A DNA stretch of 60,568 nucleotides from Armatimonadota bacterium (GCA_038207085.1 JBBRAE010000016.1:1-60568), one strand, 5' to 3'; positions 4,206 through 48,998 are shown, counted from the stretch's first letter. Translations and numbers: made by a program. The notes: generated by a model not told the origin, from the sequence alone.

Positions 4206-4305
4206 CTCCCCAGTAAATGGCGGTTTTTGCCATTTACTCTTCCCATCGTAGTGAAGTCGGAGGCAGCGCGGGTTTTGCGCTGCGAGAGACTTCACTCACG
4301 ATCCC
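4206..4305 (-). repeat. Two-hairpin leader element, copy A
   Basis: Sense strand GTGAAGTC-TCTC-GCAGCGC..GCGCTGC..GACTTCAC then AGTAAATGGC-AAAAACC-GCCATTTACT-GGGGAG; homologous to 5390, 29105, 48861. Confidence 0.88.
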
Positions 4306-5375
4306 AATAATATCGATCCCGAGGCGACTATGGAGCCTGCGCCAAGCACTGCCCCGTCCCCCAGCCTACTGTCTTTATCTAAAATCGCTCCTACAAGCAT
4401 CGCGCCTGCCCCAACTACGACATTCTCAAGGAGCACGCTCCCCTCGATCTTCGCGCCGTCGCCGATCACGCAGCCTGCGCCTATGGAAGAAAAATCATCA
4501 ATCACCGCGCCCGCGCCGATTCGACAACCCAGGCCCAAGTGGCAGCGGGACGAAACTTTGGCCGAAGGGTCGATTTGCACCTCACCCATACTCCAAAATC
4601 CCGCAGGCTCGCGGTTTCCAATAATATCTACCTCGACCGCCCCTGACAATACATCCCTGTGCGCTCTCAGATAGGCCGCCGGTGTGCCTATATCGAGAAA
4701 ATATCCCGCAAGTGGATAGCCGAAGACCCTCAAGCCGTCTCTAACAAGCGACGGGAAGAACTCCCTCTCGATCGAGCAGTTAGCCCCATAAGCGATGCGC
4801 AGAAGCGCCTCTCGCTCAAGCACGTAGATGCCTGAGTTCACGGTCACAACGCCGTCGGGCTTGATCTGACCCGATGCAAGCGCCTTTTTGATCGCCTCGC
4901 TCGGCTCTTCAAACGCCGTCACTCTGCCAGCATCATCGGTTCGGACGATGCCGCAGGGGGTCGGCGACGGGACGGTCATCAGGCCGATAGTCGCATCGGC
5001 GCGGTTCTTTTTGTGAAACTCAACAAGCGCAGAAAGGTCGTAGTCTACGAGGTTATCGCCGTTTGTCACAACGACGGTGTCTTCGTTCATATGGGGTTCG
5101 GCAAAGCGCACGGCTCCGGCGGTGCCAAGCGGAGTTGTTTCGATGGAGAACTTGACCAGAAGCTCGGAGGTCGAATACTCCTTGAAGTAATCCTCCACAG
5201 CCTCGGCTCCGACACCCGCGCAGAAGACGACATCACGCGCGCCATGTCTTGCCATAAGCTCCACTTGGTATTCGACCAGTGGCTTGTTGGCAAGCGGCAT
5301 CATCGGTTTTGGCCTTGTATATGTGAATGGTCGAAGACGCGTCCCTGCTCCGCCCGCAATAATAGCTCCGGTCAT
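4296..5375 (-). CDS. NDP-sugar pyrophosphorylase (mannose-1-phosphate guanylyltransferase-like) with C-terminal hexapeptide beta-helix
   Basis: IIAGGAGTRLRP..PKP, PLGTAGA, NGD, DIGTP; IGxGxxI repeats at C-terminus; start likely ATG 5375. Confidence 0.85.
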   Translation of the reverse strand: MTGAIIAGGAGTRLRPFTYTRPKPMMPLANKPLVEYQVELMARHGARDVVFCAGVGAEAVEDYFKEYSTSELLVKFSIETTPLGTAGAVRFAEPHMNEDTVVVTNGDNLVDYDLSALVEFHKKNRADATIGLMTVPSPTPCGIVRTDDAGRVTAFEEPSEAIKKALASGQIKPDGVVTVNSGIYVLEREALLRIAYGANCSIEREFFPSLVRDGLRVFGYPLAGYFLDIGTPAAYLRAHRDVLSGAVEVDIIGNREPAGFWSMGEVQIDPSAKVSSRCHLGLGCRIGAGAVIDDFSSIGAGCVIGDGAKIEGSVLLENVVVGAGAMLVGAILDKDSRLGDGAVLGAGSIVASGSILLGS

Positions 5376-5389
5376 ACCGGTTCTTGTCA

Positions 5390-5482
5390 CTCCTTTGAAA
5401 ATGGCGGTTTGTGTCATTTTCATTCTCGTTGTGATGAAGACGGCAGCGGCGTTTGCGCTGTGAGAGTGTTCATCATGATTCC
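5390..5482 (-). repeat. Two-hairpin leader element, copy B
   Basis: Sense strand TGATGAACACTCTCACAGCGCAAACGCCGCTGCCGTCTTCATCACAACGAGAATGAAAATGACACAAACCGCCATTTTCAAAGGAG. Confidence 0.82.
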
Positions 5483-5716
5483 AATAGTAGAAGTTGGCGA
5501 CTGTCGCTTGCGCTGCCGTCCCTGGCAATTGAGGAGAATGATTGACGACTCCTCAATTGTAAAGCATAGCCGCGCGAACCGCAATACAGCCGTCAACTCA
5601 TATCATCGGCAGATTGGACAAAAATACATAGTAAAAATACTGGGTTGACTGGGTATTACAGTCGGGGTATCATCCATATAGACTACACAGACTACCAAAG
5701 ACGGGAAAAACGTCAC

Positions 5717-8700
5717 ATGCGCTTTATCATACCAACTCTTCTGTTTGTTGCCTTCGCATCCGCCTGCCAATCCGGCCCGCTGCAAGTTTCGGAAAAATCG
5801 ACCCGGGCGATTGTCGTCTCCAGGGATGAGACACGCCCCGGCGGGCTTGCTTTCAGGCGCACCGAAGTGACCGCGTCGGGAACGTCAAAGCTTTCAGCTG
5901 ACCCTTCGGTCGTCGCGGTGCTCCCAAACAGGCCCATCAAGGTGCCGCCGGTCCCCGGACCGCGCCAGAATATGTTCGAGGAGTCCCCCTGGGGGGTTTC
6001 ACTTCGCAGCGAGCCGGTTCGCCCGGCGATGTGGATGGCGACTCAGATCCACAATGCGCCTCAGGCCTGGGCCTCGGGCTACACTGGGAAAGGGGTCAAA
6101 ATCGCCGTCCTTGACGAGGGAATAGACTTCGGCCACCCCGATCTACAGGGGTGCCAGGCCCGAGTGACCGACCAAATCTCCCCCTACTACGGCTGGCCGG
6201 TCGCCTTCGACCCCGGCGCGATGGCGATCTACGCCTCAGAGGGATACACGACCGGCGGCTACATCGACACATACGAAACGATGACCCCGGGCGCACCCAC
6301 CTGGCGCGGGCGCAATTACAAACTTCCCGGCACGAGCATAAGTGGCGAATATCACGTCGGCGCGCATGGAAGCTACTGGCTGCCCTTTATCCTCGCCCCC
6401 TGGGGGTATCCCCCTGCGGTCCTCGTTGCCGATGAACAGTCCGCTGGCGTCTACGACACGGTCTATGTAGACCTGAACAAGAACCTCGACTTCACAGACG
6501 ATCACCCCTGCAGGCGGGGCGACGAGATATCTTCTTTTGACGCAGATCACGACGGCCTCGCCGACTATTCAGGCGGCATGCTCTACTTTATCGCCGATGG
6601 AAAGAACCCAGTACCGGCATCGGACTGGCTCTACGACCTCCCAGCCCCTGAAAACGGCTGCCTGGTCTGCTTTGCGGGAGCGTTCGGCAAGTATGAGTCA
6701 CACGGCACGCTCGTCACTTCGGCGATCTCGGCGCGAGGCAAGGTCGGAACTACTTACAAAATCCCACAAAAGCCCGACGGCTCCGGCGGAATAGTCCAGG
6801 GAGTCGCGCCGGGCGCGGAAATCATCTCAGTCGGCACCATCTACAACTCAGAGGCCGATCTATACGACGCCATCCAGTTCGCAATCAACGGCTACGACGG
6901 TATCCCCGGCACCGACGACGACGCGGATATCGTCAATATGAGCTTTGGCGTCTCAAGTGAGGACCTCGATGGCTGGGACTTCCTTTCCCGCTATATCACT
7001 TATTTGAACAAAACCACCGCGCCGAGCGTGACCTTTGTCGCATCAAGCGGAAACGGCGGGCCGGGCTATGGGACGGTCACAAGCCCCGGAGGCGCCAGTT
7101 CGGCGTTAACCGTCGGCGCATCGACCCTTTATGGCTCAACCGACGGGCTCGACCCTATCAAATCAGCCGATCAGATACTGTTCGGCGACATTCAGCAGTG
7201 GTCAAACAGAGGGCCAAACGCGCTCGGGCAGATCAAACCCGAAGTGGTCGCTACAGGCGCATGGGCGACCGGCGATGTGCCGATCTACGGCTACGGCGAA
7301 GGGTCATGGCTTGTCTGGGCGGGCACAAGCCTCTCTGCGCCGATCACCTCAGGCGTCACGAGCCTGGTCTATGAGGCATATAAAGCGCGCACGGGCCGGT
7401 TTCCAACTGCCGCCGAAGCAAAAGAGATAATGATGTCGAGCTGCAAGGACCTGTGCTACAACACGCTTGAGCAGGGAGCGGGGATGATCGACGCCGCCCG
7501 GGCCACGGAAATCGCCGCAGGGACGGGAGGCTTCAAGGTCGACCCGCCGGTATGGTCGGCTGCGCGGGGAAAGACTCCAGAGTCGTTCCCAAGCGTCCTT
7601 AAGCCGGGGGAGAAGGCGGCGAAGACGTTTACGATCGAGAACACCAGCCCGAAGCCGCTCAAGTTGATGGCGTATGGTCGCAGGCTCGTTCGATCCAGTT
7701 GGAGCCAGTTCGACCTCACGACGAAGCTCTCGGCTGAGAGCCCGGAGGCCGACATCTACAGGCCGGACTACCTCGTCGACCTCAGCCGATATGTGCCGAA
7801 AGGCACCGACCTGCTTCGCGTCCGGGTATCGTTCCCCTACCCAAGCTTCAGCCTGATTGCGCCCGCCTACGATGACCTGCGCCCGTCGAGCACTTGGATC
7901 GCCTCGCTCTACGATTGGAGCGACCTGAACGGCAACCGCCGTGTGTGGAAAGACTCGGACCACAACAGGGTCGTCAACGCCGACGAGTTTGAGATCGGCG
8001 AGGTGAACAGGTTTATGCTCGCCAACCCGACAAGCGACGTTATCGAGATCTCGGTAAGGGAACCAATGGACCGTATACATGATGGGCTCCTGCTCGGGCT
8101 CATACACGGCGCGCGCAGTGCGAGCATCCCGGCGACGACCCTCAAGATTGAAGTCGAGAGCTACAAAGAGGCGAACTGGGACTGGCTTTCCACTGTAAAC
8201 CAGGCGATTATTATCCCTGCCCGAGGCAGAGTGCAGATTCCAGCGAGCGTCAGCGTTCCATCATCAGCAACAGCGGGCATCTACACCGGTTCGCTTGTCT
8301 TGCGCACCTTTGCGGACAAGAACGCGCGCAAAGTGACTGTTCCGGTGTCGGTTTCAGTCGCGGCGAATGCTTCCAGAACAACTATTGCAGCCGGTTCCGA
8401 CGGCCTTGGCGACACCTACGACAACGGCAGGATGTTCGGCTCATTCGACTGGAGCTGGAGGGAAGAGTCAGGCGACTGGCGGCAGTATTTCATCGATGTC
8501 CCACCCGCAAAACCCGGCGCGGCCACTTATCTGCTCGCCAACGCCAACTGGCTGAATATGCCAAGCGATACCGACGTGCTGATCTACCGGCCCGAAAAGG
8601 ACGACTTCTTCTCCCAGACCATGCCGGAGGTATTTGGACCAAACAACCTCACACTCGCCGGAGGAAGCCGCAACGCGTGGCTTCACGACGGCGTTTGGAA

Positions 8701-9457
8701 GTTCCAGACCGCAACCGGGGACAAGCGCGAGTGGGTCGCGGGGCGCACCGAACCGGGGCTCCACCTGATCCAACTCCACAACACACTCGCGTCAGGCTAC
8801 GCGGGCTCAGAGCCGTTCACGCTTGCTGCGGGACAGGTGACGATCTCCCCGGCCAAGCTCGATCTCACCCCTGGGCAAACGTCGCTCGATGTGAAACTCT
8901 CAAGCACCCTCGGTCTTTCGGGAATCGAGACGCTCGCCTTCGGGCCAAACGCGCCGACGACTTTTACAGAGCAAACCATCGGCCAAGACTACCGTTACGA
9001 CCCAAGATACTCGTCTTGGACTCGGGATATTACCGTAGACAAGGCAGGTCTGATTGAGGTCACTGTGACTGTTCCGCGAGGGAACGATCTCGACGCCTAT
9101 CTGCTCTGGGACAGCAACACCGATGGCAAGTTCGACTGGGACAATGAGGTCGTCGCAAGCTCCGCGACCGACAGACCAAGCGAGCAGATCACGTATTATC
9201 TGCCGACCGACGGCCGCTACCGGATCGCCGTCCACGGGTACAGAGTCCCGGATCAGGCCACGTTCGACACCTCAGTCCTGGTGATTAACGGCAAGGGAAT
9301 CCAAGTACCTGCGCCAACTGGGCCGGTCATACCCGGCAGGGAACAGTTGATCAGGCTCGGAATTACCGGTGCAGAGGCCGGAATGCGGGGGATAGTATTT
9401 CTTGGCCCAGCAGGGGCACCCGGTGTGATTCGGCTGCCGGTGACGGTGGGGTTCTAA
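5717..9457 (+). CDS. Large secreted S8 (subtilisin/pyrolysin-like) serine peptidase with C-terminal PPC-like domain
   Basis: Catalytic triad AVLDEGID, SHGTLV, GTSLSAP; oxyanion SSGNGG; signal peptide from ATG 5717; DLDAYL..SEQI PPC-like tail. Confidence 0.9.
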   Translation: MRFIIPTLLFVAFASACQSGPLQVSEKSTRAIVVSRDETRPGGLAFRRTEVTASGTSKLSADPSVVAVLPNRPIKVPPVPGPRQNMFEESPWGVSLRSEPVRPAMWMATQIHNAPQAWASGYTGKGVKIAVLDEGIDFGHPDLQGCQARVTDQISPYYGWPVAFDPGAMAIYASEGYTTGGYIDTYETMTPGAPTWRGRNYKLPGTSISGEYHVGAHGSYWLPFILAPWGYPPAVLVADEQSAGVYDTVYVDLNKNLDFTDDHPCRRGDEISSFDADHDGLADYSGGMLYFIADGKNPVPASDWLYDLPAPENGCLVCFAGAFGKYESHGTLVTSAISARGKVGTTYKIPQKPDGSGGIVQGVAPGAEIISVGTIYNSEADLYDAIQFAINGYDGIPGTDDDADIVNMSFGVSSEDLDGWDFLSRYITYLNKTTAPSVTFVASSGNGGPGYGTVTSPGGASSALTVGASTLYGSTDGLDPIKSADQILFGDIQQWSNRGPNALGQIKPEVVATGAWATGDVPIYGYGEGSWLVWAGTSLSAPITSGVTSLVYEAYKARTGRFPTAAEAKEIMMSSCKDLCYNTLEQGAGMIDAARATEIAAGTGGFKVDPPVWSAARGKTPESFPSVLKPGEKAAKTFTIENTSPKPLKLMAYGRRLVRSSWSQFDLTTKLSAESPEADIYRPDYLVDLSRYVPKGTDLLRVRVSFPYPSFSLIAPAYDDLRPSSTWIASLYDWSDLNGNRRVWKDSDHNRVVNADEFEIGEVNRFMLANPTSDVIEISVREPMDRIHDGLLLGLIHGARSASIPATTLKIEVESYKEANWDWLSTVNQAIIIPARGRVQIPASVSVPSSATAGIYTGSLVLRTFADKNARKVTVPVSVSVAANASRTTIAAGSDGLGDTYDNGRMFGSFDWSWREESGDWRQYFIDVPPAKPGAATYLLANANWLNMPSDTDVLIYRPEKDDFFSQTMPEVFGPNNLTLAGGSRNAWLHDGVWKFQTATGDKREWVAGRTEPGLHLIQLHNTLASGYAGSEPFTLAAGQVTISPAKLDLTPGQTSLDVKLSSTLGLSGIETLAFGPNAPTTFTEQTIGQDYRYDPRYSSWTRDITVDKAGLIEVTVTVPRGNDLDAYLLWDSNTDGKFDWDNEVVASSATDRPSEQITYYLPTDGRYRIAVHGYRVPDQATFDTSVLVINGKGIQVPAPTGPVIPGREQLIRLGITGAEAGMRGIVFLGPAGAPGVIRLPVTVGF

Positions 9458-9631
9458 GGGCGTGTCTGAGAAGTGTAATGGCCGTCAACCGTGACGGCCA
9501 TCGGCTCCGAATGAGCCGGAAAACGGTGGAATTACGTGCTCTTGAGCATTGATACGAGTAGGGCAGCGCCTACGGCGCTGATGGCCGGCACGGCGACCGG
9601 CCACTACAATCGGGATTTCTCAGACACGCTC
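9458..9631. mobile_element. 174-bp MITE with IS5-family-like ends, carrying an inverted REP doublet
   Basis: IRs GGGCGTGTCTGAGAA / TTCTCAGACACGCTC (14/15 match); TAA on both flanks (9455-9457, 9632-9634); family assignment is inference. Confidence 0.8.
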
Positions 9632-9932
9632 TAAGGGGTTGGGGTTGGTGCTGGCGCACAGCGACGGGCAGTGCCTCTTGTCGGGAAATGGGTTTCGGGG
9701 ACGGGGTCCCCTCTCGTTCGTCCGGATATGTTATCCGGGACGTCTGGGCCGAATAGGCATCTGTGATGCCGGTAGATTGGATAGAGCCGAATAAGCGGAA
9801 TCACAGATCCCTTGTTTGCCAAGAAGGCCCGGATTGCAAATCCAGGCCAACATCGGGGCGCGATCCAGGCCAACTCAGTCCACCAATCTCCCAACCCTCG
9901 CCAGTCCCAATCTAGCAACTAGCAACTGACGA

Positions 9933-11012
9933 CTAGCGGCTCTTCTTCACGTTGGCCCGAACCGCGGCTATATACTCATCAGTAACAGCCTTCTCAAAAC
10001 TTCTAAACCCAGCGAGCTCGAAGCCATGCCTGTCGGCGATCTCGGATATGCCGTCGACCTGATCTACACTTACCTCTTTGCCGAGCGTAAAGCTTTCATA
10101 ACGTGCATCGAGTGCGAGCGCCATAGTCTCGGACATACAGGCGTAAGCGGTCTTGGGCGGGAAGCCGAAGCTGAAGTGGAAGTCAACGTCAGCGCCGGGA
10201 ACGGCAACGACTCCACCTTCGATCACGAGAACATCGTTTCGCTCTTTGGCGACTGCAACGGATACGTCCCGGGGACGGGCAACGTCGCAGACTACCGCGC
10301 CGCTCTTGATGAACGAGGGCTCGATGATCGCTTCGACGGCGCTTGAAACTGTGATGACGATGTCGGCGTCTTTGATCCCGCTTGCAACGTCGTTCGACAC
10401 GGTGAACTCAGCGTTGCTTTTGCCGCGAAGCTCGGAGGCCACAGCCTCAAGCGACTCGAGCTGGCGACCTACAAGAGAAATCCTCGGAGCTTGACGCGCC
10501 ATGATCTCGGCACAGGTGCGACCAATCGAACCGGCGGCCCCGACGACCGCGACCGACGCCTTGGTTGGGTCGATATCCATAAGCTCCGCGGCCTTGATCG
10601 CGCCGCGTATGGCTGTTGCGATGGTGTAGCTGTTCCCCGTCGTTACGGCGATTCCGACGTTTTCGGAGATCGTCTTGCCGCCGTCACCTACAACCGACGT
10701 AAAAGCGCCAAGACCGATGATCTTTGCGCCAAGGTCTTCAGCGATCTTCGCGGCGCCAATGATCTTGTTATACACGAACTCCTTGGGGAGCGTCAGCATC
10801 TGCTTGGGAGTAAGCGGGCACCCGACCAGCCAGCCCTCGGCCTCCGCGCCGGTCTTGGACTTAAGGCCCGTCACGTGCGAGACGAGCATCGGGCTTTTCT
10901 TGGTCAGCCCGTACTCGATCCAGCTCTCGGGCAGAAACTTCACGAACGGGTATTTGCGCGCGATGTCGCGCTTTGCTTCAAGCGGATGTATAATAAAACC
11001 GAATCGTTCCAA
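9933..11012 (-). CDS. Acyl-ACP reductase-like NAD(P)-dependent oxidoreductase (COG5322-type, often labelled shikimate dehydrogenase-like)
   Basis: FGFIIHP, GLGAFTS, TTGNSYT, VVGAAGSIG, YACMSE, RHGF follow the cyanobacterial AAR layout; TTG start 11012 just after the upstream stop. Confidence 0.72.
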   Translation of the reverse strand: MERFGFIIHPLEAKRDIARKYPFVKFLPESWIEYGLTKKSPMLVSHVTGLKSKTGAEAEGWLVGCPLTPKQMLTLPKEFVYNKIIGAAKIAEDLGAKIIGLGAFTSVVGDGGKTISENVGIAVTTGNSYTIATAIRGAIKAAELMDIDPTKASVAVVGAAGSIGRTCAEIMARQAPRISLVGRQLESLEAVASELRGKSNAEFTVSNDVASGIKDADIVITVSSAVEAIIEPSFIKSGAVVCDVARPRDVSVAVAKERNDVLVIEGGVVAVPGADVDFHFSFGFPPKTAYACMSETMALALDARYESFTLGKEVSVDQVDGISEIADRHGFELAGFRSFEKAVTDEYIAAVRANVKKSR

Positions 11013-11013
11013 G

Positions 11014-11931
11014 CTACTCTCCAAGCCTCCTGATGGTGGGCTCCCATTCAAGTTTGTTTAATATATCGAGGTAATCTTGTGCAGACATATCTTCCTGACG
11101 CTTGCCGGTGAGCGCTACACAGATACCCTCTACGACGTTTGTTCCGAAGGTGCGGCCATCAAACTCTTTGGTCGAGGTCACGATAGTATCAACGCCGCGC
11201 GCCTTCAGATCGTTGACATCCCCTTCGGTAAGGGTGTTAGTGATGACAGTCTTGCCGCTGAGCGCGCCAGACTCGGGCGGCGGCATGTAGCGCCCGATGA
11301 TCTTGTAGTCGCCAGCGATTATGTCCGCCCACCTGAAGTATTTCTCGTACTTCGGCGTTATGACGTCCTGTTTTTCGCCCGTGGGATAGATCCACTGGAA
11401 CGGCACGCGGCAGACGATCGGCAGCAGGAGCTTGCCAAGCAACTGCACAGTTGACCATCTCTTTATCGCAATAGGAATCCCCAAGTTGAACATCAAGTCG
11501 CCGTAGACGACCTCTCTGGAGACCCGAGCCATCACTTCAGCCATCCCAAAACGGTCGACCGCGCAGACCATCAGCACCTTTTTGTCGCTGAAATCGATCA
11601 GCTTCTCGCGGTGCAGCCACTCGATCGTCTCGCGCTCAAGCGTGTTTTTGATCCCGCTTCCGTCGACCACGGGAGTCTTGACGGCGAACTTCGCGAGCCG
11701 GTCGGCGTCTCGTATCGTATATTTCCTATCACCAGCGACGAGATAGCGGTCGATCCCGCCGAGGCAGATCGCGTCTACGTTGCCATCGATCTCCGAAATA
11801 AGCTCGGCATAACGCTTCATGTCGCCATTGGTGCCGATGCGAGATATCTCGAACTCCTCGCCAAGGAGCGTCGCGGTTACTTTCTTGTCACCCCTCGACG
11901 ACCCTAAGCTCACACTTACTACGCGCTTCAT
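11014..11931 (-). CDS. Conserved uncharacterised protein (family often labelled quinate 5-dehydrogenase)
   Basis: MKRVVSVSLGSS, LGGID, VVDGSGIK, GRTFGTNVVE; coupled to both neighbours. Confidence 0.65.
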   Translation of the reverse strand: MKRVVSVSLGSSRGDKKVTATLLGEEFEISRIGTNGDMKRYAELISEIDGNVDAICLGGIDRYLVAGDRKYTIRDADRLAKFAVKTPVVDGSGIKNTLERETIEWLHREKLIDFSDKKVLMVCAVDRFGMAEVMARVSREVVYGDLMFNLGIPIAIKRWSTVQLLGKLLLPIVCRVPFQWIYPTGEKQDVITPKYEKYFRWADIIAGDYKIIGRYMPPPESGALSGKTVITNTLTEGDVNDLKARGVDTIVTSTKEFDGRTFGTNVVEGICVALTGKRQEDMSAQDYLDILNKLEWEPTIRRLGE

Positions 11932-12922
11932 CCAATACCTGCTCAATCTCCTCAAGGCTCGACGCTTCCATGATTTTCGATCGAAGCGCCGCAGCCCCAG
12001 GATAACCTTTCAAATACCATGCAATATGCCCGCGCATCTCGCGGACAGCCCGGTCCTCGCCCTTGCAACCCGCAAGCTTATGCCCGTGCATACGGGCGCC
12101 TTCTATGCGGGTCAGGGGATCCGGTTCGGGCACAAGAACACCGGTTTCCAAATATGTGTGGACCCTGGAAAATATCCAGGGGTTGCCAAGCGCCGCGCGA
12201 CCGATCATCACCCCGTCGCAGCCGGTCTCGTCAAAGAGCCTTTTCGCGTCCTCAGGGGATCGAACATCGCCGTTGCCGATCACGGGAATACTTACGGACT
12301 CTTTAACGCGCCTGATGATATCCCAATCGGCCTGCCCCGTGTACATCTGAACCGCGGTGCGCCCGTGGACACAGATGGCCGCGCCGCCTGAGCCTTCTAC
12401 TATCCTGGCCACTTCAAGCGCCGTTTCAAGCGAGCTGTTCCAGCCCCGGCGGGTCTTGACAGTGACAGGAACCTTTACCGCGCCGACTGCGGCCTTGACG
12501 ATCTCTTCAAGCTTCGGCAAATCGTGGAGAAGCGCCGCGCCCGAGCCGCTTTTGGTTACTTTCGGCACTGGACAGCCGAAGTTGATGTCGATTATATCGG
12601 CCCCGGCCTCTTCGACGATCTTCGCGCCGTCGGCGACTGCGTCGGGGTGCGCTCCAAAAATCTGTACGCAGACCGGACGCTCGGAGGGTTTCCAGTCCAG
12701 CATCGTGCGGGTCCGCTTATGAGCCATCCGAAGTGCGTAGACGCTCACCATCTCGGTGGTGACAAGCCCAACGCCGCCCATCTCCCTGCACATCGTCCGG
12801 TGAGCACGGTTGGTGACCCCAGCCATCGGCGCAAGAACGATCGGAGGATCAATCTCGATATTTCCAATGAAAAACGGAGGGTAGGCGCGAACATTTTTGG
12901 ATATCTCGACATTAGCCGACAT
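11888..12922 (-). CDS. dusB: tRNA-dihydrouridine synthase B
   Basis: LAPMAG, DINFGCPVPKV, VHGRT, IGNGDV, MIGRAALGNPW. Confidence 0.93.
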   Translation of the reverse strand: MSANVEISKNVRAYPPFFIGNIEIDPPIVLAPMAGVTNRAHRTMCREMGGVGLVTTEMVSVYALRMAHKRTRTMLDWKPSERPVCVQIFGAHPDAVADGAKIVEEAGADIIDINFGCPVPKVTKSGSGAALLHDLPKLEEIVKAAVGAVKVPVTVKTRRGWNSSLETALEVARIVEGSGGAAICVHGRTAVQMYTGQADWDIIRRVKESVSIPVIGNGDVRSPEDAKRLFDETGCDGVMIGRAALGNPWIFSRVHTYLETGVLVPEPDPLTRIEGARMHGHKLAGCKGEDRAVREMRGHIAWYLKGYPGAAALRSKIMEASSLEEIEQVLDEARSKCELRVVEG

Positions 12923-13689: not shown

Positions 13690-13700
13690 AGGCGTTAATT

Positions 13701-13730
13701 AAAAAGGAGCAGCCTAAACGAGTCTGCTCC
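13701..13730 (-). terminator. Intrinsic terminator-like hairpin between the CAP gene and coaX
   Basis: GGAGCAGAC-TCGTTTA-GGCTGCTCC-TTTTT on minus strand. Confidence 0.65.
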
Positions 13731-13765
13731 CATCACGCCTAGTTTATCAGTTTTGCCTCATCGCG

Positions 13766-14437: not shown

Positions 14438-14689
14438 ACGCGGAACCCTCCCTAGCAATCTATTGATTCCATAACTATGCCGCGTAGCTACTATACTTCC
14501 TGCGGTCCAGTTGTTTCGAGGATTATGCATCGAGGTTCACCTTATTGCGTGGCCAGATGAGCTTATTGTAAGTTATCAAGCTCTTCCTGTCAATTATGCT
14601 GAGAAAATAATCAGGTAATTTTACTGTAGACATTTCACTTAAGAAGTGCTCAAAGCGGGTAAAGACGTTGCCGACGGAGGTTGCCTGTT

Positions 14690-17661: not shown

Positions 17662-17693
17662 GTCAAAATGCCATAGAACAGGAAGTGTATAGG

Positions 17694-29094: not shown

Positions 29095-29104
29095 AACTAG
29101 GATT

Positions 29105-29204
29105 CCTCCCTTGTAAATGGCGCTTTCTGCCATTTACGTTCCCATTGTGATAAAGACGGCAGCAGCGCGGTATTTGCGCTGCGAGAGTCTTTATCACAAC
29201 TCCC
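29105..29204 (-). repeat. Two-hairpin leader element, copy C
   Basis: Sense strand GGGAGTTGTGATAAAGACTCTCGCAGCGCAAATACCGCGCTGCTGCCGTCTTTATCACAATGGGAACGTAAATGGCAGAAAGCGCCATTTACAAGGGAGG. Confidence 0.9.
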
Positions 29205-30738
29205 ATAACCGCTCTATTGCCCTTGGAAGAAGCGGGAGCAGGTCGGTTGCCGCAACTCCGGCATCGCCGAACTCCTCGGCGGCCAACTCACCCGCTTTTC
29301 CATGAATATATACGCCGCAGATCGCGGCATCAATTGCACTCAAACCCTGCGCGAGAAGCCCTACAATCGCGCCGGTCAGCACATCGCCCGTTCCCCCGGT
29401 TGCAAGCGCGGGGCTGCCGGTCGTGTTTACCCAAACCTCGCCATCAGGCGAGGCGATTACCGTCGCCGCGCCCTTTAAAACAACCACCGCACCGAACTTC
29501 TTCGCGGCCTGCCGGGCGGTTTCCAGTCTGTTTGACTGAATCTCCGCGGTCGATGTTCCAAGCAGGCGAGCCATCTCACCGGGATGCGGCGTCAACACGA
29601 CCGGAGACCTCACACTTGATAATACGCTAGTGTCTTCGGAAACGGCGTTCAGCCCGTCAGCGTCGATCACCATCGGGCAATCAATCGCGGGAAGCATCTC
29701 AAGGACGAACTTGACCGTCTCGGGGTCTTTGCCGACACCCGGCCCGATCGCAACGGAGTCACACCTGCCGACAAGCTCGAGCGCTTGTTTCATCGCGCCA
29801 AGCGAAAAACTCCGGGACTCAGTCTCAGCAAGCGGCACGGTCATGACCTCGGTGACTTTGGCCGCCAAAATGTCGTTCAAGCTCTCTGGGACGGCCAAAG
29901 TGACTAGCCCCGCCCCGATTCGCACCGCCGACATACTCGACATCGCCGCAGCCCCGGTCAGGCCGATTGACCCTGCGATAACAGCGACGTGCCCAAACGT
30001 GCCCTTGTGGGCATCAGGCGCTCTATCGGGCATCCTGTATAATATATCGTCTGATTCTGTTACAAAGCTTGATATTCCAGCCGTATCGAACGCCGAGGCG
30101 GGGATCCCTATCTCTGCGACGTACAGGTCGCCCGCGTAGTCGAGTCCGGGATAAGAAACAAGCCCAATCTTTGGCAGTGCAAAGGTGACGGTAGCGTCGG
30201 CGATGACACACCTGCCGCCGATCTCCCCCGTGTCGGCATCAAGGCCGGATGGAAGATCAACCGCAACCACAGTCTTGCCGCTCGCATTGATCGCGTCGAT
30301 CACCTCACCGGCAAACCCCGTGACTTCCCCCCTGATCCCGGTGCCAAGAAGGGCGTCGACGATGAGATCGCAGTGGGCAAGCTTCATCGGAAGGTCACCA
30401 AGCTCGGCAATCTCGTCGATCACGATGCCTGATTTCTTTGCGATACCGAGATTGACTCCCGCATCGCCCTTCACGTCCTCGATTCGGCCAACAAGCGCCA
30501 CTCGCACGTCCACACCGACCTCATGGAAGTGTCTCGCGACCACAAAACCGTCGCCACCGTTGTTCCCCTTGCCTGCGATAACAAGCACGCGGCTGCCGTC
30601 GATCTCCGAGAGCATATCGAGCGCGACGTCAAATGCTCGAACCCCGGCGTTTTCCATCAAAACTATGCTCGGGACGCCGAACTCCTCGGTTGCCCGACGG
30701 TCGAGCGTTCTCATCTGCTCTGCAGTTACGATTCTCAT
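29194..30738 (-). CDS. nnr: Bifunctional NAD(P)H-hydrate epimerase/dehydratase
   Basis: LMENAG, GKGNNGGDG, DALLGTG, HKGTFG, IDADGLN, LTPHPGE, GGTGDVLTG. Confidence 0.95.
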   Translation of the reverse strand: MRIVTAEQMRTLDRRATEEFGVPSIVLMENAGVRAFDVALDMLSEIDGSRVLVIAGKGNNGGDGFVVARHFHEVGVDVRVALVGRIEDVKGDAGVNLGIAKKSGIVIDEIAELGDLPMKLAHCDLIVDALLGTGIRGEVTGFAGEVIDAINASGKTVVAVDLPSGLDADTGEIGGRCVIADATVTFALPKIGLVSYPGLDYAGDLYVAEIGIPASAFDTAGISSFVTESDDILYRMPDRAPDAHKGTFGHVAVIAGSIGLTGAAAMSSMSAVRIGAGLVTLAVPESLNDILAAKVTEVMTVPLAETESRSFSLGAMKQALELVGRCDSVAIGPGVGKDPETVKFVLEMLPAIDCPMVIDADGLNAVSEDTSVLSSVRSPVVLTPHPGEMARLLGTSTAEIQSNRLETARQAAKKFGAVVVLKGAATVIASPDGEVWVNTTGSPALATGGTGDVLTGAIVGLLAQGLSAIDAAICGVYIHGKAGELAAEEFGDAGVAATDLLPLLPRAIERLWEL

Positions 30739-41400: not shown

Positions 41401-41760
41401 TGAGCAAGCCAGGTGGTCGCTCCGGGTAACCGGAGAGGAAAGTCCGGGCTCCACAGGGCAGGATGCTGGATAACGTCCAGCGAGCGCAAGCTTAGGGAAA
41501 GTGCCACAGAAAAGAAAACGGCCCCGCCGACGGCGCTATATGCGCCATCTCAAGCGAGACCAAAGCTGAAACGGTGGTGTAAGAGACCACCAGCGGTGCG
41601 GTGACGCACTGGCTTGGTAAACCCCATCCGGAGCAAGGCCGAATAGGAGAGGGTTGAAGCTGCCCGCCGACCTCTCGGGTAAAGGCCGCACGAGAGCCGG
41701 AGCAATCCGGCTCCTAGAGAGATGATCACCCACGACAGAACCCGGCTTACGGCTTGCTCA
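41401..41760 (+). ncRNA. rnpB: RNase P RNA, bacterial type A
   Basis: GAGGAAAGTCCGGGCTCC, GGAAAGTGCCACAGAAA, GGTAAACCCC..GGAGCAAGGCC, ACAGAACCCGGCTTA; ends TGAGCAAGCC / GGCTTGCTCA pair as P1. Confidence 0.97.
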
Positions 41761-43183
41761 CTACACCCATAGACCGGACCCGCTTCTCCATCCGCCGCGT
41801 CTCATTAACGATTGCAACAAAGCTCCCAAACATAAGCCCCAGCAACAGACTTCCCAAGAGCACGAGTTTGGTTTTCGGCTTGATCGGCCCCTTTTCAGGC
41901 ACGGCGTAGTCGAGCACGGTAAAGGTGTGCGGGTCTTTGGCTTCGGTCACTTTGGCGTTGCTGAAATCGGCTAGTAGCGACATGTAGACAACTTCGAGCG
42001 CTTTCACGTCACGAAGCAGACGGACGTACTGGATCTGTGCTGCAGCCTTGTCGCTGATCCCACGCTCTACGCGGGTCATCGCGTCATTCATAGCCTGAAC
42101 CCGTGCCTCAAGCCCGCTTCGCTTTATCTCAAGCCCTGCGAGGTTCTGAATGACAACCTGGCGAACGGGGTTAAGCGCAAAAGTCTCATTTCCTGTCACA
42201 CGAGAGACTTCCTCGCGCATCTTCTCGCGGCTTTTCTCAATCTCCTGATCGATCGCGACAACATCGGGGTGCTTTTCCGTAAAGTTCTCAAGCAGCATTG
42301 CGCGTGTGACCTCGGCGTCAGTGATCTGTTGTTTCAAGTTGCTGACGATTGGGTTTTGCGTGACTACCCTTGAAACTGACTGCGTGACATGCTCACCGGC
42401 GGCGACATTTTTGGCCTCTTCGATGCTCTCTGTAGCTTCACGAAGCTCGGTCTCGGCCTGAAGCTCGAGCGTCCGCATGCCGATGATACTCTTCACTTGC
42501 TCGCTTGCCGCATCGGGAGGTGGGACAGTCGGATGTGCTGCGATGAACTTGCGAAGCCTCTCCTCGGTCTTAGTCAACTGCTCGCGGGTCGTATTGACCT
42601 CGCTTTCGAGGAAGACTCGACGGTTACGACCGCTGTTTAGCGCGTGCTCTCGATCATACTGCTCAAGGGCGTCTATATAGGTGTTGGTTATCTCAGCGGC
42701 AAGCCTTGCTGTGTGCCGCTTGGTGTCCTCGTTGGGGTATTTCGAGTCAAGCCAGGTAATCTTACCCGTCTTCACCCAGGACGAGAGGGCATAGCACGAG
42801 AGCTTCAGCGAGCCCTCATAACTTGCATCGACTTCCACCTGTTCCAGCAGTGTCTCAGCGTCGACCCCTGCGGCCTCAAGCCCAAGCTCACGCACAACGT
42901 CTGAGGCGAGCGTACGGCTTTTGAGGATCTGCGAATACATCCCCACACCCGACATACCGGAAAGCGATGCGGCACCGATTGCAGGACGCCCCGTGCGCTG
43001 CGACATCAATCCCGACGTCTGCTGCTGCTGGGGGAACAGAATCGTTGTCTTGCCCCGAAACGTTCGAGGAGTCACGAGGATGAACAACACGCCAAACACA
43101 ACGGCGATCATCGCTGCGGCAGCAACGATTCCTCGTCGACGCAGAAGCATATCTATATAATCTGAGAGCCCAATTTCTTCCAT
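41747..43183 (-). CDS. Polysaccharide co-polymerase / chain-length determinant (Wzz/GumC-like, no kinase domain)
   Basis: N- and C-terminal TM, ILKSR, coiled coil with FTEKHPDV, VLD.A.P..P.KP. Confidence 0.85.
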   Translation of the reverse strand: MEEIGLSDYIDMLLRRRGIVAAAAMIAVVFGVLFILVTPRTFRGKTTILFPQQQQTSGLMSQRTGRPAIGAASLSGMSGVGMYSQILKSRTLASDVVRELGLEAAGVDAETLLEQVEVDASYEGSLKLSCYALSSWVKTGKITWLDSKYPNEDTKRHTARLAAEITNTYIDALEQYDREHALNSGRNRRVFLESEVNTTREQLTKTEERLRKFIAAHPTVPPPDAASEQVKSIIGMRTLELQAETELREATESIEEAKNVAAGEHVTQSVSRVVTQNPIVSNLKQQITDAEVTRAMLLENFTEKHPDVVAIDQEIEKSREKMREEVSRVTGNETFALNPVRQVVIQNLAGLEIKRSGLEARVQAMNDAMTRVERGISDKAAAQIQYVRLLRDVKALEVVYMSLLADFSNAKVTEAKDPHTFTVLDYAVPEKGPIKPKTKLVLLGSLLLGLMFGSFVAIVNETRRMEKRVRSMGVVSKP

Positions 43184-46595: not shown

Positions 46596-47273
46596 CTATC
46601 GTTTCTCAGCCGTATCAAGCAGCACGCAGAGCCCAAGCGCTATTCGACGATCCAGGCTTCGGGTGTGGTCCTGAGTGAGGTCGAGGACGTATTTGTCGAT
46701 GATGGTGAACTTGCGGTTGAACGTTCCCACCTGACGGCTTCCAAGGAATATATTGAAGTTCGTCCTGATCCATTCACCAAACGGCAGGTATCGCCGTATC
46801 AGTCCCAAAAGGACGGAGTCCTCCTCAGCTTTGCCTATCACGTCGCCGTTGGCATCGAGAACGTGCCACAACCGCTGAAAGAACATCCCCCTGATCCAGT
46901 CTTTTCTGAAGATTGCGAGCGGCTGACCGTCCGGGAGCACGAGGTGGAGCTTGTAGCCCATATCGAAGAACCCCTTCGGCTTGCTCATTATGCTCATAAC
47001 AGGGACGTTCTTGGATTCGTCGGTAAAGAAATGCAGCTTGGGCATTACCTTCCAAGCCTCGCGCTCGACGTATAGAAGCTTGTTTCCAAACTCATCAAAG
47101 ACGTGATACTTGTCCTTGAACGAGAGCACTTTCTGGTTGAGCAGGTATTTGTCGAACGCAAAAACTCCGGCGGCTGGCCCCTGTGATACGAGTTGCGGAC
47201 CAAGATCGGCGCCGCACCTGTAACACTCATTTCCCTGGCTTCCATTGTCGGTGTTGCACTGTGGACAGATCAT
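46596..47273 (-). CDS. Zinc-ribbon plus LURP-one/scramblase (Tubby-like) domain protein
   Basis: CPQC..CYRC; QKVLSFKDKY.V.DE.G, RKFTIIDKY.LD, LDRR; ATG 47273 with AAGGAG. Confidence 0.7.
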   Translation of the reverse strand: MICPQCNTDNGSQGNECYRCGADLGPQLVSQGPAAGVFAFDKYLLNQKVLSFKDKYHVFDEFGNKLLYVEREAWKVMPKLHFFTDESKNVPVMSIMSKPKGFFDMGYKLHLVLPDGQPLAIFRKDWIRGMFFQRLWHVLDANGDVIGKAEEDSVLLGLIRRYLPFGEWIRTNFNIFLGSRQVGTFNRKFTIIDKYVLDLTQDHTRSLDRRIALGLCVLLDTAEKR

Positions 47274-47360
47274 TTCAAGCGTCTCCTTGGGGACGAGCAA
47301 GTGGTACAAACATCGCCCGGCAATAAATACCCTGCAGCCAAGCGTTAAAGGAATTGTTGA

Positions 47361-48677
47361 TCAACCGATGGCGGGATGGCCGCGGTCTAGAAGCCCCTGC
47401 ACAAGCGGGTCTGCGATCGCCTCGCGGACCTCAGGCTCGTCGGGCGCCATCCTGTAGGCCCTGTCAAACCAGTCGGCGGCGGCGCGGTTGTTTTTCATCC
47501 TGAGGAACAACTCCCCTAGCTGCAGATGAGGATAATACCACTCCGGCGCAAGCCTCACGGACTCAAGCAGGTGGACTTCGGCTACCGCAAGCTCGTGGTT
47601 CATCTCGATAAGCGCCCAGCCGACTCCGGCATGCGCCGCTGCGTTGCAGGGGTTGAGGTGAACCGCCTTCTGATATGCCGGAAGCGCGCGTTCGGGAAGG
47701 TCTGCGGCGGCTTCAAGGTCGGCAAGCAGATACCAAATGTCGGGATTGCTCGGCTCCTGCTCAACGGCTTTTGCGAGCACTACACGGGCGTCGTCAAAGG
47801 CATCGATATGTTCGCAGGCGCAGACATAGCTGTAAAGCGCGTGGGAGGATGTCGGGTCGACGTCGAGCGCTTTCTTGCACGCGCCGATCGCATCGTCGTA
47901 GCGTTGCTGCGCGACCAGCACCTCGCCAAGACCTGCCCAGGCCTCGCTATCGGTTGGGTCATCGGTAACAACCATCCGATACTCCCACTCGGCCTCGTCG
48001 AGCTTGCCGAGCATAAGGCACGCGTGGGCGGCAAGGTATCTCGTGTCGACGTTTTCCGGGCAGACATCAAGCGCGCTTTCGTAGACCATAAGCGCCATAT
48101 CCCAAAGATCCATCGCCTCATAAACTTCACCCAGGGCAACAAGTGTCTGCACGTCTCTTGGGTCGACCTCTACAGCCTCCTCAAGCACACGTCTTGCCGC
48201 GCGGTAGTTGCGCTGTGCGACGAGCGCGCGACCGAGGTTGAACATGGTGATGGTGTCTTCGGGGTCGAGATCGAGAGCGAGACGATAGGACTGAAGTGCG
48301 CCTTCGATGTCACCCTTCATATGGAGCGAATAGCCGATGGCGGAGTGGAGGTCTGCTATGCAGTATCCGAGTTCTTCGGCCTTTCGAAGATCCCGAAGCG
48401 CACGATCGTGCTTGCCGAGTGCGCCCAGGGCGTGGCCGAGGATATAGTGGGCAAAACCTGATGACTTGTCGACGCTGATAAGCTGCTCGAAGACGTGAAC
48501 GGCCCTTTCCCATCGGTTCAGGGACGTGTAAGCCTGCCCGAGACCTTCGAGGGCGTCCTGGTTGTCGATGTCAAACTCCAGAGCGCGTATGTAGAAGTCT
48601 ACAGCCCTCTCATAGTCACCGGCCTGATAAAAGCAGTCACCTTGATCTACAAGTGTGTGGATTGTGTTTTGGTCCAT
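47361..48677 (-). CDS. Tetratricopeptide repeat protein
   Basis: About 12 TPR units across the whole ORF. Confidence 0.9.
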   Translation of the reverse strand: MDQNTIHTLVDQGDCFYQAGDYERAVDFYIRALEFDIDNQDALEGLGQAYTSLNRWERAVHVFEQLISVDKSSGFAHYILGHALGALGKHDRALRDLRKAEELGYCIADLHSAIGYSLHMKGDIEGALQSYRLALDLDPEDTITMFNLGRALVAQRNYRAARRVLEEAVEVDPRDVQTLVALGEVYEAMDLWDMALMVYESALDVCPENVDTRYLAAHACLMLGKLDEAEWEYRMVVTDDPTDSEAWAGLGEVLVAQQRYDDAIGACKKALDVDPTSSHALYSYVCACEHIDAFDDARVVLAKAVEQEPSNPDIWYLLADLEAAADLPERALPAYQKAVHLNPCNAAAHAGVGWALIEMNHELAVAEVHLLESVRLAPEWYYPHLQLGELFLRMKNNRAAADWFDRAYRMAPDEPEVREAIADPLVQGLLDRGHPAIG

Positions 48678-48860
48678 AGCAGTGTCTTTTCATCTCCACT
48701 ATCTGAAAGCAGGTTATCATGCAGAGCGCCCGGTGTCAACGGTACAAACACTATAATTCTGCGCATCAGCGGCGATATTATACCCAGCAGCCTTGTTAAT
48801 AGTCGTGCAGGACAAAAAGTATTTTTTGTACAAGTGGTAATAGCTCATTGAGTAAGTTCT

Positions 48861-48998
48861 GGGGGAGTTGTGATGAAGACTCTCGCAGCGCAAAGAGCAA
48901 CGCCGCTGCCGGCTTTCGCAGTATTACATACTGCTGTCGCCAAGGTCATCACCACAACGGGAATGTAAATGGCAAAAACCGCCATTTACAAAGGGAGG
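48861..48998 (+). repeat. Two-hairpin leader element, copy D (with an extra internal hairpin)
   Basis: GGGAGTTGTGATGAAGACTCTCGCAGCGCAAA..[GCAGTATTACATACTGC insert]..CACAACGGGAATGTAAATGGCAAAAACCGCCATTTACAAAGGGAGG. Confidence 0.88.

What the first reader, a model, noticed from the sequence alone, without database searches (positions are those of the whole stretch)
4206..48998. Unrecognised covarying two-hairpin element fused to ribosome-binding sites (4 copies)
Seen: copies at 4206-4305(-), 5390-5482(-), 29105-29204(-) and 48861-48998(+) share GG(G)A..GTGAT(G/A)AAGACTCTCGCAGCGCAAA..GCGCTGC..GTCTT(C/T)ATCACAA-GGGAA-GTAAATGGC-N7-GCCATTTAC, followed by the SD. All four are in sense orientation, with hairpin 2 ending 0-2 nt before the SD of hddA, the NDP-sugar pyrophosphorylase, the FHA membrane protein and thyX. 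Differences between copies are compensatory: GTGAAGTC/GACTTCAC vs ATAAAGAC/GTCTTTAT, and GTAAATG/CATTTAC vs GAAAATG/CATTTTC. I see no terminal IRs, no target duplication and no U-tract, and I do not recognise it as a known riboswitch. Inference: a lineage-specific cis-regulatory RNA (protein-binding, processing or stabilising leader) or a portable translation-initiation cassette. The unrelated downstream genes favour a global regulator or a domesticated repeat over a metabolite riboswitch.
Basis: partly seen in the sequence, partly recalled or inferred. Interest (0 to 1): 0.82.

Follow-up and report, generated by a model that had tools for sequence, protein, structure and literature searches.

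The report
Hairpin repeats inserted into ribosome-binding sites
The four look-alike leaders are copies of a small mobile hairpin repeat of some Armatimonadota that lands inside the ribosome-binding site of unrelated genes and rebuilds that site at its own end, so it is selfish DNA with an unusual landing place and probably not a regulatory RNA.

Summary
All four copies lie at the stated places, in sense, with compensatory stem differences, and none matches Rfam. They belong to a dispersed family with 54 covariance-model hits in this 3.35 Mb genome. At 42 of 54 hits an SD-like word and a start codon of an ORF of 50 or more codons sit at the 3' edge, against 0 of 54 on the opposite strand and 5% of random places.

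The family is patchy within one class of Armatimonadota (up to 98 hits per genome, often tandem). Its sites are not orthologous between genomes (2 of 27).

In same-family relatives that lack it, the same gene pairs overlap or nearly touch, with the SD inside the upstream gene. At coaBC-metK the insert sits exactly after GGGAG of the native GGGAGG and ends in a second GGGAG. Removing the element plus one repeat in silico restores a normal stop/start junction in 6 of 7 cases, against 2 of 14 frame-shifted controls.

The hairpins fold better on the strand complementary to the mRNA (84 of 92 copies). This argues against a sense-RNA leader.

Verdict: an SD-targeting, SD-regenerating non-autonomous repeat whose mobilising enzyme is unknown. 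The scan had met this family before, at metK in the same genome.

The parts
29098..29207 (-). Copy 3, short form, upstream of the FHA-domain membrane protein. 5' direct repeat GGGAG 29204-29200. Stem 1 is 29199-29187 with 29157-29145. Internal loop TCTC/TGCC. Inner hairpin is 29182-29176 with 29168-29162. Linker TGGGAAC 29144-29138. Hairpin 2 is 29137-29129 with 29121-29113. SD GGGAGG 29110-29105. ATG 29094-29092. The upstream 514-aa ORF ends at TGA 29196-29194, inside the element.
   Evidence: (121 bits)
4198..4308 (-). Copy 1, short form, between the NTP-transferase gene and the GHMP-kinase (hddA-like) gene. 5' GGGA 4305-4302. 3' GGGGAG 4211-4206. ATG 4195-4193. The upstream ORF stops inside the element's 5' arm.
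   Evidence: (100 bits)
5382..5486 (-). Copy 2, short form with a shorter inner hairpin, in the divergent region upstream of the NTP-transferase gene. 5' GGAA 5482-5479. 3' GGAG 5393-5390. ATG 5375-5373.
   Evidence: (83 bits)
48860..49004 (+). Copy 4, long form, upstream of thyX. 5' GGGAG 48863-48867. SD GGGAGG 48993-48998. ATG 49009-49011.
   Evidence: (79 bits)
48911..48945 (+). Optional extra hairpin ('module B') nested in stem 1 of copy 4. The same module sits in 9 elements of this genome, once inverted, and its core also occurs in another repeat family.

Best explanation
The four elements are copies of a non-autonomous, insertional DNA repeat family found in one class of Armatimonadota.

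Anatomy. Each unit is a hairpin preceded by GGGA(A/G). The common form joins two units: a long hairpin (13-bp stem, 4x4 internal loop, variable inner hairpin) and a short, sequence-conserved 9-bp hairpin.

Shown here:
- The family sits in one orientation with its 3' edge on the SD of the next gene.
- Relatives without it have the same genes overlapping or nearly touching, with the SD inside the upstream gene.
- At coaBC-metK the insert lies exactly after GGGAG of the native GGGAGG and ends in a second GGGAG.
- Cutting out the element plus one repeat restores normal stop/start junctions.

The SD is therefore the landing site and is regenerated by the insertion, so the downstream gene keeps a ribosome-binding site although its former translational coupling is broken. 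The upstream gene is sometimes re-terminated at a TGA inside the element.

Inferred:
- Because each insertion recreates the target on both flanks, further units land beside it. This would give the same-orientation tandem and mosaic arrays.
- The stem covariation reflects what the element needs in order to move. It would move as folded single-stranded DNA of the strand complementary to the mRNA, using an enzyme that has not been found. The covariation would not reflect an RNA function.
- Effects on mRNA stability or translation are side effects that may have been co-opted locally.
For: Copies: 54 model hits in this genome, 98 in G031 and 17 in G026, many of them tandem with a period of about 92-97 nt.

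Position: 42 of 54 hits have an SD-like word, a start codon and an ORF of 50 or more codons at the 3' edge. The figure is 0 of 54 on the opposite strand and 1054 of 20000 at random places. Two of the 42 are inner members of tandem arrays. The same layout is seen in G026 and G031.

Downstream genes are unrelated housekeeping genes; 24 were scanned and 20 have Pfam families.

Patchiness: 0 of 5 same-family genomes, 9 of 28 in family f2, 1 of 11 in f5 and 0 of 16 in other families. Across the phylum, 3 of 150 genomes have it, all in f2 or f5.

Sites are not orthologous: of 27 element-linked genes of other genomes with a G000 homologue, 2 carry the element in G000.

Empty sites in same-family relatives:
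- metK: 5 of 5 with a -4 overlap and GGGAGG inside coaBC.
- dapF: 4 of 4 with a -4 overlap.
- pfkB: 3 of 3 with a gap of about 1 nt.
- FHA gene: -4 overlap in G004.
- G000 has 96-190 nt at these junctions.

Excision in silico restores the upstream stop within -9 to +4 nt of the start in 6 of 7 cases, against 2 of 14 frame-shifted controls.

Solo short-hairpin units flanked by GGGA...GGAG exist.

Structure: 89.6% of cells are paired and 22 of 29 pairs have double changes in 92 distinct copies.

Strand: the antisense fold is more stable in 84 of 92 copies with RNA parameters and 85 of 92 with DNA parameters. MFE folds have 208 G-U pairs antisense against 75 sense, and the alignment has 144 A:C against 54 G:U.
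Against: - No strain-level filled/empty pair was found, so insertion is inferred from relatives whose proteins are 45-83% identical.
- No enzyme was found. Y1 transposase (29 of 61 genomes, none in G031) and IS110 (21 of 61, none in G000, G008, G026, G031 or G039) do not track the family. No stem 1...gene...hairpin 2 composite exists in G000.
- The direct repeat cannot be told apart from conserved element ends plus a native SD.
- In other genomes the excision test worked in only 3 of 6 cases. The other 3 needed a cut shifted by 1-2 nt. In G000, pfkB failed.
- Copies are related, so the A:C excess counts few independent events. Part of it lies at pairs where the model alignment is poor.
- G031 loops read UUCG/UGCG on the sense strand. 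This is a classic stable RNA loop type (recalled knowledge), so sense-RNA folding is not excluded.
- Two of 27 shared sites, one of them FlpD, is above the roughly 0.4 expected by chance.
- Every copy is necessarily transcribed with its gene, so a co-opted RNA role remains open.
Confidence: 0.72

Rival explanations
1. One reading: a sense-strand cis-regulatory leader RNA recognised by a global regulator. One candidate is a CsrA-type protein binding the three GGA motifs. The regulator would coordinate translation of a large regulon.
For: There are three single-stranded GGA motifs, at the 5' end, in the linker and at the SD, placed between covarying hairpins. The orientation is fixed and the element abuts the SD. 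CsrA is encoded in G000. UNCG-type loops lie on the sense strand in G031.
Against: - Sites are not orthologous between genomes (2 of 27).
- Same-family relatives run the same genes without it.
- CsrA is in 51 of 61 genomes, element-free ones included, and was not found in G027, which has one copy.
- The hairpins are better on the antisense strand.
- SD accessibility in sense folds averages 0.45 and exceeds 0.5 in only 12 of 33 copies.
- Downstream genes share no function.
- Tandem arrays of up to three near-identical units are unlike known leaders.
Confidence: 0.1
2. A co-opted intercistronic processing and stabilising cassette. The long hairpin would be cut by a double-strand RNase. The short hairpin would then sit at the new 5' end next to the SD and protect the downstream mRNA, uncoupling the expression of neighbouring genes. 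This resembles the phage T7 RNase III sites or the Correia elements.
For: Stem 1 plus the inner hairpin form about 20 stacked pairs with an internal loop. Hairpin 2 ends 2-4 nt before the SD in nearly all copies. Most copies lie between co-directional genes. Cleavage of transcribed Correia and ERIC repeats is cited in passages of PMC3049150.
Against: No RNA data exist for this organism. The folding asymmetry favours the other strand. Solo short-hairpin units and B-type variants occupy the same position, so no single architecture is required. The position is explained by insertion alone.
Confidence: 0.1
3. A MIRU-like relay. The element would carry short reading frames that pick up ribosomes ending the upstream gene and hand them to the downstream start by translational coupling.
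For: In at least 7 G000 copies the upstream ORF ends at a TGA in the element's 5' arm. SD-like words followed by ATG or GTG recur at the 5' end and in hairpin 2. The MIRU precedent comes from a passage of PMC12548453.
Against: - Element lengths between the repeats are 94, 95, 97, 101, 94 and 135 nt, and 188 nt for a pair, so mostly not multiples of three.
- The ATGs are not conserved. Some G000 copies have CTG in stem 1, and many G026 and G031 copies have ATA in hairpin 2.
- Variation is compensatory in stems rather than codon-like.
- The extra hairpin module is about 35 nt.
Confidence: 0.05
4. An antisense RNA. The better-folding complementary strand would be transcribed and its three C-rich single-stranded words (CUCCC, UUCCC, CCUCC) would mask SD sequences.
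For: The strand asymmetry of folding. The C-rich words lie between the hairpins on that strand, as read directly from the sequence.
Against: No promoter or terminator evidence was found. A scan of copy 2 found nothing specific. The copies sit inside sense operons. There are more than 50 near-identical antisense genes with no conserved flanks. The insertion evidence explains the positions without this reading.
Confidence: 0.03

Closest known systems
MIRUs (mycobacterial interspersed repetitive units)
   Same: Both are short repeats, often tandem, in one orientation between genes of operons. Both appear mobile and land at translation starts so that the downstream gene is still translated (passage of PMC12548453).
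   Different: MIRUs are said to keep expression through an internal ORF coupled at -4 nt. Here no frame is conserved. The element instead carries or regenerates an SD and is built of covarying hairpins. It also occurs in a different phylum.
REP / BIME elements and REPINs with RAYT transposases
   Same: Both are units made of a conserved tetranucleotide plus an imperfect palindrome. Both combine into mosaic arrays, show structure conservation across diverged copies and have a patchy lineage distribution. Strand-specific ssDNA recognition is a recalled property of RAYT.
   Different: REPs carry GTAG, occur in both orientations and lie mostly 3' of genes (recalled). Here the tetranucleotide is GGGA, the orientation is strictly sense and the copies lie 5' of genes. 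No Y1/RAYT association was found.
IS200/IS605-derived non-autonomous elements (PATEs)
   Same: Both have hairpins near both ends and almost no terminal inverted repeats. Both insert in a fixed orientation next to a specific 4-5 nt word. The hairpins matter on one DNA strand. These family properties are recalled.
   Different: No Y1 transposase tracks the family. There is no replication-strand bias (28 against 21). The first hairpin starts directly at the repeat, with no spacer or guide segment.
Correia, ERIC and BOX/RUP-type bacterial MITEs
   Same: All are small, structured, non-coding repeats co-transcribed with genes and able to alter expression (passages of PMC3049150).
   Different: Those have clear 20-30 bp terminal inverted repeats, TA-type duplications and both orientations, as given in PMC3049150 and recalled. 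Here the inverted ends are 4-6 bp, the flanking repeat is the SD core and there is only one orientation.
Integron attC sites (works-like comparison only)
   Same: Structure rather than sequence is conserved, the bottom strand folds and is the reactive one, and the orientation relative to genes is fixed. These properties are recalled.
   Different: attC sites lie in cassette arrays next to an integrase gene. These copies are scattered among housekeeping operons. Integrase linkage was not tested.

Membership tests
Known Rfam RNA family / riboswitch | Match to a curated covariance model | tested here: not met
   In the whole window only RNase P passes gathering. E-value scans over copies 3 and 4 give only chance miRNA/snoRNA hits at E of 3 or more.
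Cis-regulatory leader RNA | Kept upstream of orthologous genes across species | tested here: not met
   2 of 27. It is missing from the same gene pairs in 5 same-family genomes.
Cis-regulatory leader RNA | Structure supported on the transcribed (sense) strand | tested here: not met
   The antisense strand is more stable in 84 of 92 copies. MFE folds have 208 G-U pairs antisense against 75 sense. Caveat: the copies are related.
REP/REPIN-RAYT | Co-occurring RAYT (Y1 transposase) gene flanked by the repeats | tested here: not met
   PF01797 occurs in 29 of 61 genomes without relation to the family. None was found in G031 (98 copies, 73% complete), G021 or G030. The two Y1 genes of G000 lie more than 13 kb from any copy.
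REP/REPIN-RAYT | Conserved tetranucleotide at the foot of an imperfect palindrome | tested here: inconclusive
   Each hairpin is preceded by GGGA(A/G), not by GTAG.
MITE (DDE-transposon derivative) | Terminal inverted repeats matching an IS of the host | tested here: inconclusive
   Only 4-6 bp imperfect inverted ends, TTGT..ACAA or TCGT..ACGA. No partner IS was searched for systematically. IS110 was excluded.
MITE (DDE-transposon derivative) | Target-site duplication of fixed length | tested here: inconclusive
   Direct repeats GGGAG, GGGA, GGAG and AGGAA flank the copies. The metK empty site fits a 5-nt duplication. A duplication cannot be separated from a sequence-specific end.
MIRU-like coupled-ORF repeats | Internal ORF overlapping the stop and start of the flanking genes | tested here: not met
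   Lengths are not multiples of 3, the ATGs are not conserved, and stops occur in only one of three frames.
MIRU-like coupled-ORF repeats | Tandem, one orientation, intercistronic | tested here: met
IS200/IS605-type (PATE) | Orientation bias relative to the replication strand | tested here: not met
   The sense strand is G-rich at 28 sites and C-rich at 21, of 49. This is a weak test on short contigs.
Integron attC | Cassette array next to intI | not tested
   The copies are dispersed on more than 30 contigs in front of housekeeping genes. No intI search was run.

The most novel reading that the evidence does not exclude
The Shine-Dalgarno sequence itself is the attachment site of an undescribed class of site- and orientation-specific mobile hairpin elements. 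These would move as folded single-stranded DNA of the strand complementary to the mRNA, by a recombinase not yet identified. Tests here found no link to Y1/RAYT or IS110. Each insertion would regenerate its own target, which explains the same-orientation tandem pile-ups, and would replace translational coupling with a self-supplied SD. Similar RBS- or start-codon-parked repeats noted by this scan in Omnitrophota and CPR bacteria (unchecked notes) would then be instances of one general strategy.
Probability: 0.3. Interest if true: 0.75.

Novelty: new variant of a known kind. Interest (0 to 1): 0.55.

Why it matters
Small interspersed repeats are known, but one that uses the ribosome-binding site as its landing pad and rebuilds it is not among the families I could find described. 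Library searches returned nothing on such elements or on Armatimonadota repeats.

It matters in three ways:
- It shows how a selfish element can colonise the tightest places in a genome, namely overlapping stop/start junctions of essential operons such as coaBC-metK, atp, his and dapF, at little cost.
- It is a caution for RNA-motif discovery. Strong covariation next to start codons can come from mobile DNA, and a strand-asymmetry test exposes this.
- It points to a site-specific DNA-moving activity with a 4-5 nt target whose enzyme is unknown.

Tried and rejected
- Rfam at gathering and E-value thresholds gave nothing.
- Public runs: three DNA holders, kept as Logan contigs only; no RNA holder listed.
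- Laying the three runs on window 1-20000 showed contig breaks and cross-mapping of other copies at c1 and c2, but no contig that skips an element. This says nothing about polymorphism.
- The metagenome protein scan with the FHA protein gave only 4 distant loci, at most 46% identical.
- DNA search of two G026 loci against congeneric genomes: one found nothing and the other found only an ~80-nt conserved segment elsewhere.
- The genome contigs pattern scan gave 22 loci, of which 12 were confirmed by the model, all Armatimonadetes or unnamed MAGs. The other 10 were not matched by the model and look like chance matches.
- The viral contigs pattern scan gave one hit, not confirmed by model R2.
- CsrA distribution was uninformative (51 of 61).
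- Y1 transposase and IS110 distributions showed no association.
- A search for a stem 1...gene...hairpin 2 composite, meaning an autonomous copy, in G000 found none.
- GC-skew orientation showed no bias.
- SD accessibility in sense folds showed no consistent exposure or masking.
- A promoter/terminator scan around copy 2 found nothing specific to the element.
- A formal test for a target duplication by correlating 5' and 3' flanks was dropped, because the repeat core does not vary.


Full report
**1. The observation**

They align over about 105 nt, or 145 nt for copy 4, which carries an extra ~35-nt hairpin.

The layout, written for copy 3, is as follows:
- GGGAG.
- A 13-bp stem 1 enclosing a 4x4 internal loop (TCTC/TGCC) and a 7-bp inner hairpin.
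- A linker TGGGAAC.
- A 9-bp hairpin 2.
- AA, then GGGAGG, then 10 nt, then ATG.

Rfam has nothing at these places. The window's only Rfam hit is RNase P RNA at 41401-41764.

**2. A dispersed family, not four leaders**

The window is contig C16 of a 3.35 Mb, 83-contig genome with 57% G+C. Earlier notes of this scan call it Armatimonadota-like, and the named MAGs that carry the family agree.

A profile of the four copies finds 35 long matches at E<1e-8 plus partial ones. I built a covariance model from 25 of the 35 long matches. The ten long, B-type and tandem forms were left out (A2, R1). It gives 54 hits at E<=0.01. One of these is a reverse-strand echo inside a tandem pair.

Forms are modular:
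- The inner hairpin can be replaced or joined by a second hairpin, 'module B'. This occurs in 9 elements, once inverted.
- Short-hairpin units occur alone, flanked by GGGA...GGAG.
- Four loci in G000 carry tandem copies that share one GGGA(G) at the junction.

**3. Position and orientation**

At 42 of 54 hits an SD-like word, a start codon and an ORF of 50 or more codons lie at the 3' edge. The same test gives 0 of 54 on the opposite strand and 1054 of 20000 at random places.

Of the 12 negatives:
- Two are upstream members of tandem arrays.
- One is the reverse-strand echo.
- Nine lack an abutting gene. In two of these the gene starts 25-45 nt further on with its own SD.

Two of the 42 positives are also inner array members, whose 'ORF' runs through the next copy.

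Hairpin 2 ends 2-4 nt before the GGAG almost everywhere, while the distance from GGAG to the start varies from 3 to 14 nt.

Most copies have a co-directional ORF whose stop lies within about 20 nt of the 5' end. In at least seven copies the upstream ORF runs into the element and stops at the TGA of GTGA.

The downstream genes are unrelated. They include an FHA protein, a GHMP kinase, an NTP transferase, ThyX, PfkB, MetK, HIT, AtpB, HisA/F-type, DapF, UDP-glucose dehydrogenase, an E1 dehydrogenase and a ferredoxin. Twenty of the 24 scanned have a Pfam family.

**4. Distribution**

Among 60 relatives the model hits the following:
- 0 of 5 genomes of the same family.
- 9 of 28 of family f2: G031, G026, G008, G023, G021, G035, G006, G027 and G030.
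- 1 of 11 of family f5: G039.
- 0 of 16 in the other families.

A second model built from 96 copies of at least 10 genomes (A3, R2) hit 3 of 150 genomes drawn across the phylum. All three are in f2 or f5.

G031 (73% complete) has 98 hits, many in arrays of two or three with a period of about 92-97 nt. G026 has 17.

An exact-pattern scan of 185,579 species genomes returned 22 loci. Twelve were confirmed by the model, all from Armatimonadetes or unnamed MAGs. The other ten were not matched by the model and look like chance matches.

Copies in other genomes keep these features:
- The 5' AGGAATCG.
- The internal loop TCTC/TGYC.
- The linker GAAGGGAAC.
- The AAAAT...ATTTT base of hairpin 2.
- The final AGGAG followed by a start codon.

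The inner hairpin and the top of hairpin 2 are swapped as cassettes.

**5. Structure**

On the 25-copy alignment, 84.2% of cells pair and 12 of 13 pairs of stem 1 show double changes.

On 92 distinct copies, 89.6% pair, against 34-48% with slid partners. Twenty-two of 29 pairs show double changes, and 0 of 500 shuffles reach the observed covariation. That alignment was fitted to the model and the copies are kin, so these figures overstate independence. The helices are nevertheless real.

**6. Which strand folds?**

On the sense strand the paired columns hold 144 A:C against 54 G:U. Part of the A:C excess sits at pairs where the model aligns diverged subfamilies badly.

Alignment-free folding gives the same answer:
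- The reverse complement is more stable in 84 of 92 copies with RNA parameters, by 5.7 kcal/mol on average.
- It is more stable in 85 of 92 copies with DNA parameters.
- Its MFE structures hold 208 G-U pairs against 75.

Many G031 loops read TTCG, TGCG or TCC on the sense strand, which is CGAA, CGCA or GGA on the other. From recalled knowledge, C-GNA-G triloops are very stable in DNA hairpins and UNCG loops are very stable in RNA. The loops alone therefore do not decide.

Overall the asymmetry points to selection on the strand complementary to the mRNA.

**7. Insertion**

Sites are not shared between genomes. I read 36 element-linked downstream proteins from G026, G031 and others. Of these, 27 have a G000 homologue, and only 2 of those G000 genes carry the element: a FlpD-like gene and one weak case. 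About 0.4 would be expected by chance.

In the five same-family genomes, which lack the family, gene order is kept and the junctions are mostly short:
- coaBC-metK: a 4-nt stop/start overlap with GGGAGG inside coaBC, in 5 of 5.
- dapF: a 4-nt overlap in 4 of 4.
- pfkB: a gap of about 1 nt in 3 of 3.
- FHA gene: an ATGA overlap in G004, short gaps in G001 and G002, and other repeats at the same spot in G003 and G005.
- hddA: gaps of 24 and 142 nt.
- UDP-glucose dehydrogenase: a gap of 18 nt in the one syntenic relative.

G000 has 96-190 nt at these junctions.

At metK the flanks align base for base. The relatives read ...CTTTGGGAGG + 7 nt + TTG. G000 reads ...CTTTGGGAG, then a 188-nt tandem pair ending in GGGAG, then G + 7 nt + TTG.

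I then removed the element plus one copy of the repeat in silico. The upstream stop falls within -9 to +4 nt of the downstream start in 6 of 7 G000 cases where the upstream ORF enters the element. It does so in 2 of 14 frame-shifted controls. The failure is pfkB.

In other genomes, 6 arrays could be tested. Three were restored, and the other three only with the cut moved by 1-2 nt.

The removed lengths are 94, 95, 97, 101, 188, 94 and 135 nt.

**8. Mechanism**

Shown: the family is inserted DNA. Its landing place is the SD core. One repeat copy stays upstream and the other serves the downstream gene.

Inferred:
- Orientation and target specificity come from a site-specific reaction on a non-palindromic word, GGGAG or CTCCC.
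- Regeneration of the target explains the tandem mosaics.
- Stem covariation reflects requirements of the moving form, probably folded single-stranded DNA of the bottom strand.

The enzyme is unknown. The tests gave the following:
- Y1 transposase genes do not track the family.
- IS110 genes do not track it either.
- There is no replication-strand bias (28 against 21).
- No autonomous composite was seen in G000.

Selection alone, with only sense insertions that rebuild an SD surviving, could also produce the orientation. It would not produce the exact junctions.

**9. RNA-level rivals**

- A global-regulator leader, an RNase-processing cassette, a relay of small ORFs and an antisense RNA are each weighed in the Rival explanations section.
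- None is needed to explain the positions.
- The first is contradicted.
- The relay is contradicted.
- A locally co-opted effect on mRNA cannot be excluded, because every copy is co-transcribed with its gene.

**10. Comparison and novelty**

It works most like MIRUs, which are repeats that land at starts and keep the gene translated (passage read in PMC12548453). In build it is most like REP/BIME or IS200/IS605-derived hairpin elements. It fails defining tests of each; see the membership table.

Four library searches found no description of such an element or of Armatimonadota repeats. PMC3049150 was read in passages for the general properties of bacterial MITEs.

This scan had already met the family at coaBC-metK in this genome (note e1-1441302). 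Notes on other phyla describe comparable RBS-parked repeats, which I did not test.

**Verdict**

The feature is real and is a new variant of a known kind. The regulatory-RNA reading is downgraded.

Noticed in passing
window 41401-41764 (+): Bacterial RNase P RNA class A, 279 bits, full length.
   Followed up: no
window 9450-9850: Two other repeats of about 185 nt with long inverted ends. blastn listed 59 aligned pieces of the 500-nt stretch across the genome, its own place included, and depth reached 175 in run X1.
   Followed up: partly
G000 C5:54814 and C28:7303: A different repeat family shares the module-B core (TCGCA, hairpin, GCTGTCGCC) inside CT-rich/GA-rich flanks. The hairpin module may therefore be exchanged between families or recognised by the same factor.
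   Followed up: no
L134, L135, L144, L151 (G031): Another repeat (GGTTTGGTTCAAAGCAGATTCC...) directly follows the last unit of several arrays in place of a gene start.
   Followed up: no
L055, L056 (G003, G005), Nnr-like/FHA gene junction: These element-free relatives carry 294-345 nt of unrelated hairpin repeats at the very junction that holds copy 3 in G000. The spot attracts insertions in several lineages.
   Followed up: no
L068, L069, L075 (one alphaproteobacterial MAG): Three exact matches to the search pattern, all 59 nt long, were not recognised by the covariance model. They may belong to an unrelated repeat of that genome.
   Followed up: no
G000 C41:13817-14427 and L148 (G031): The FlpD-like (mvhD-type) gene carries the element, tandem in G000, in both G000 and G031. 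This is the only clear shared site, and could be either an old insertion or a hot spot.
   Followed up: partly
window 29194-29204 and G000 C6:15353: The upstream proteins (Nnr-like, CoaBC) end in ...W-E-L-stop, encoded by GGGAG + TTGTGA of the element. The insertion has rewritten their last residues.
   Followed up: yes
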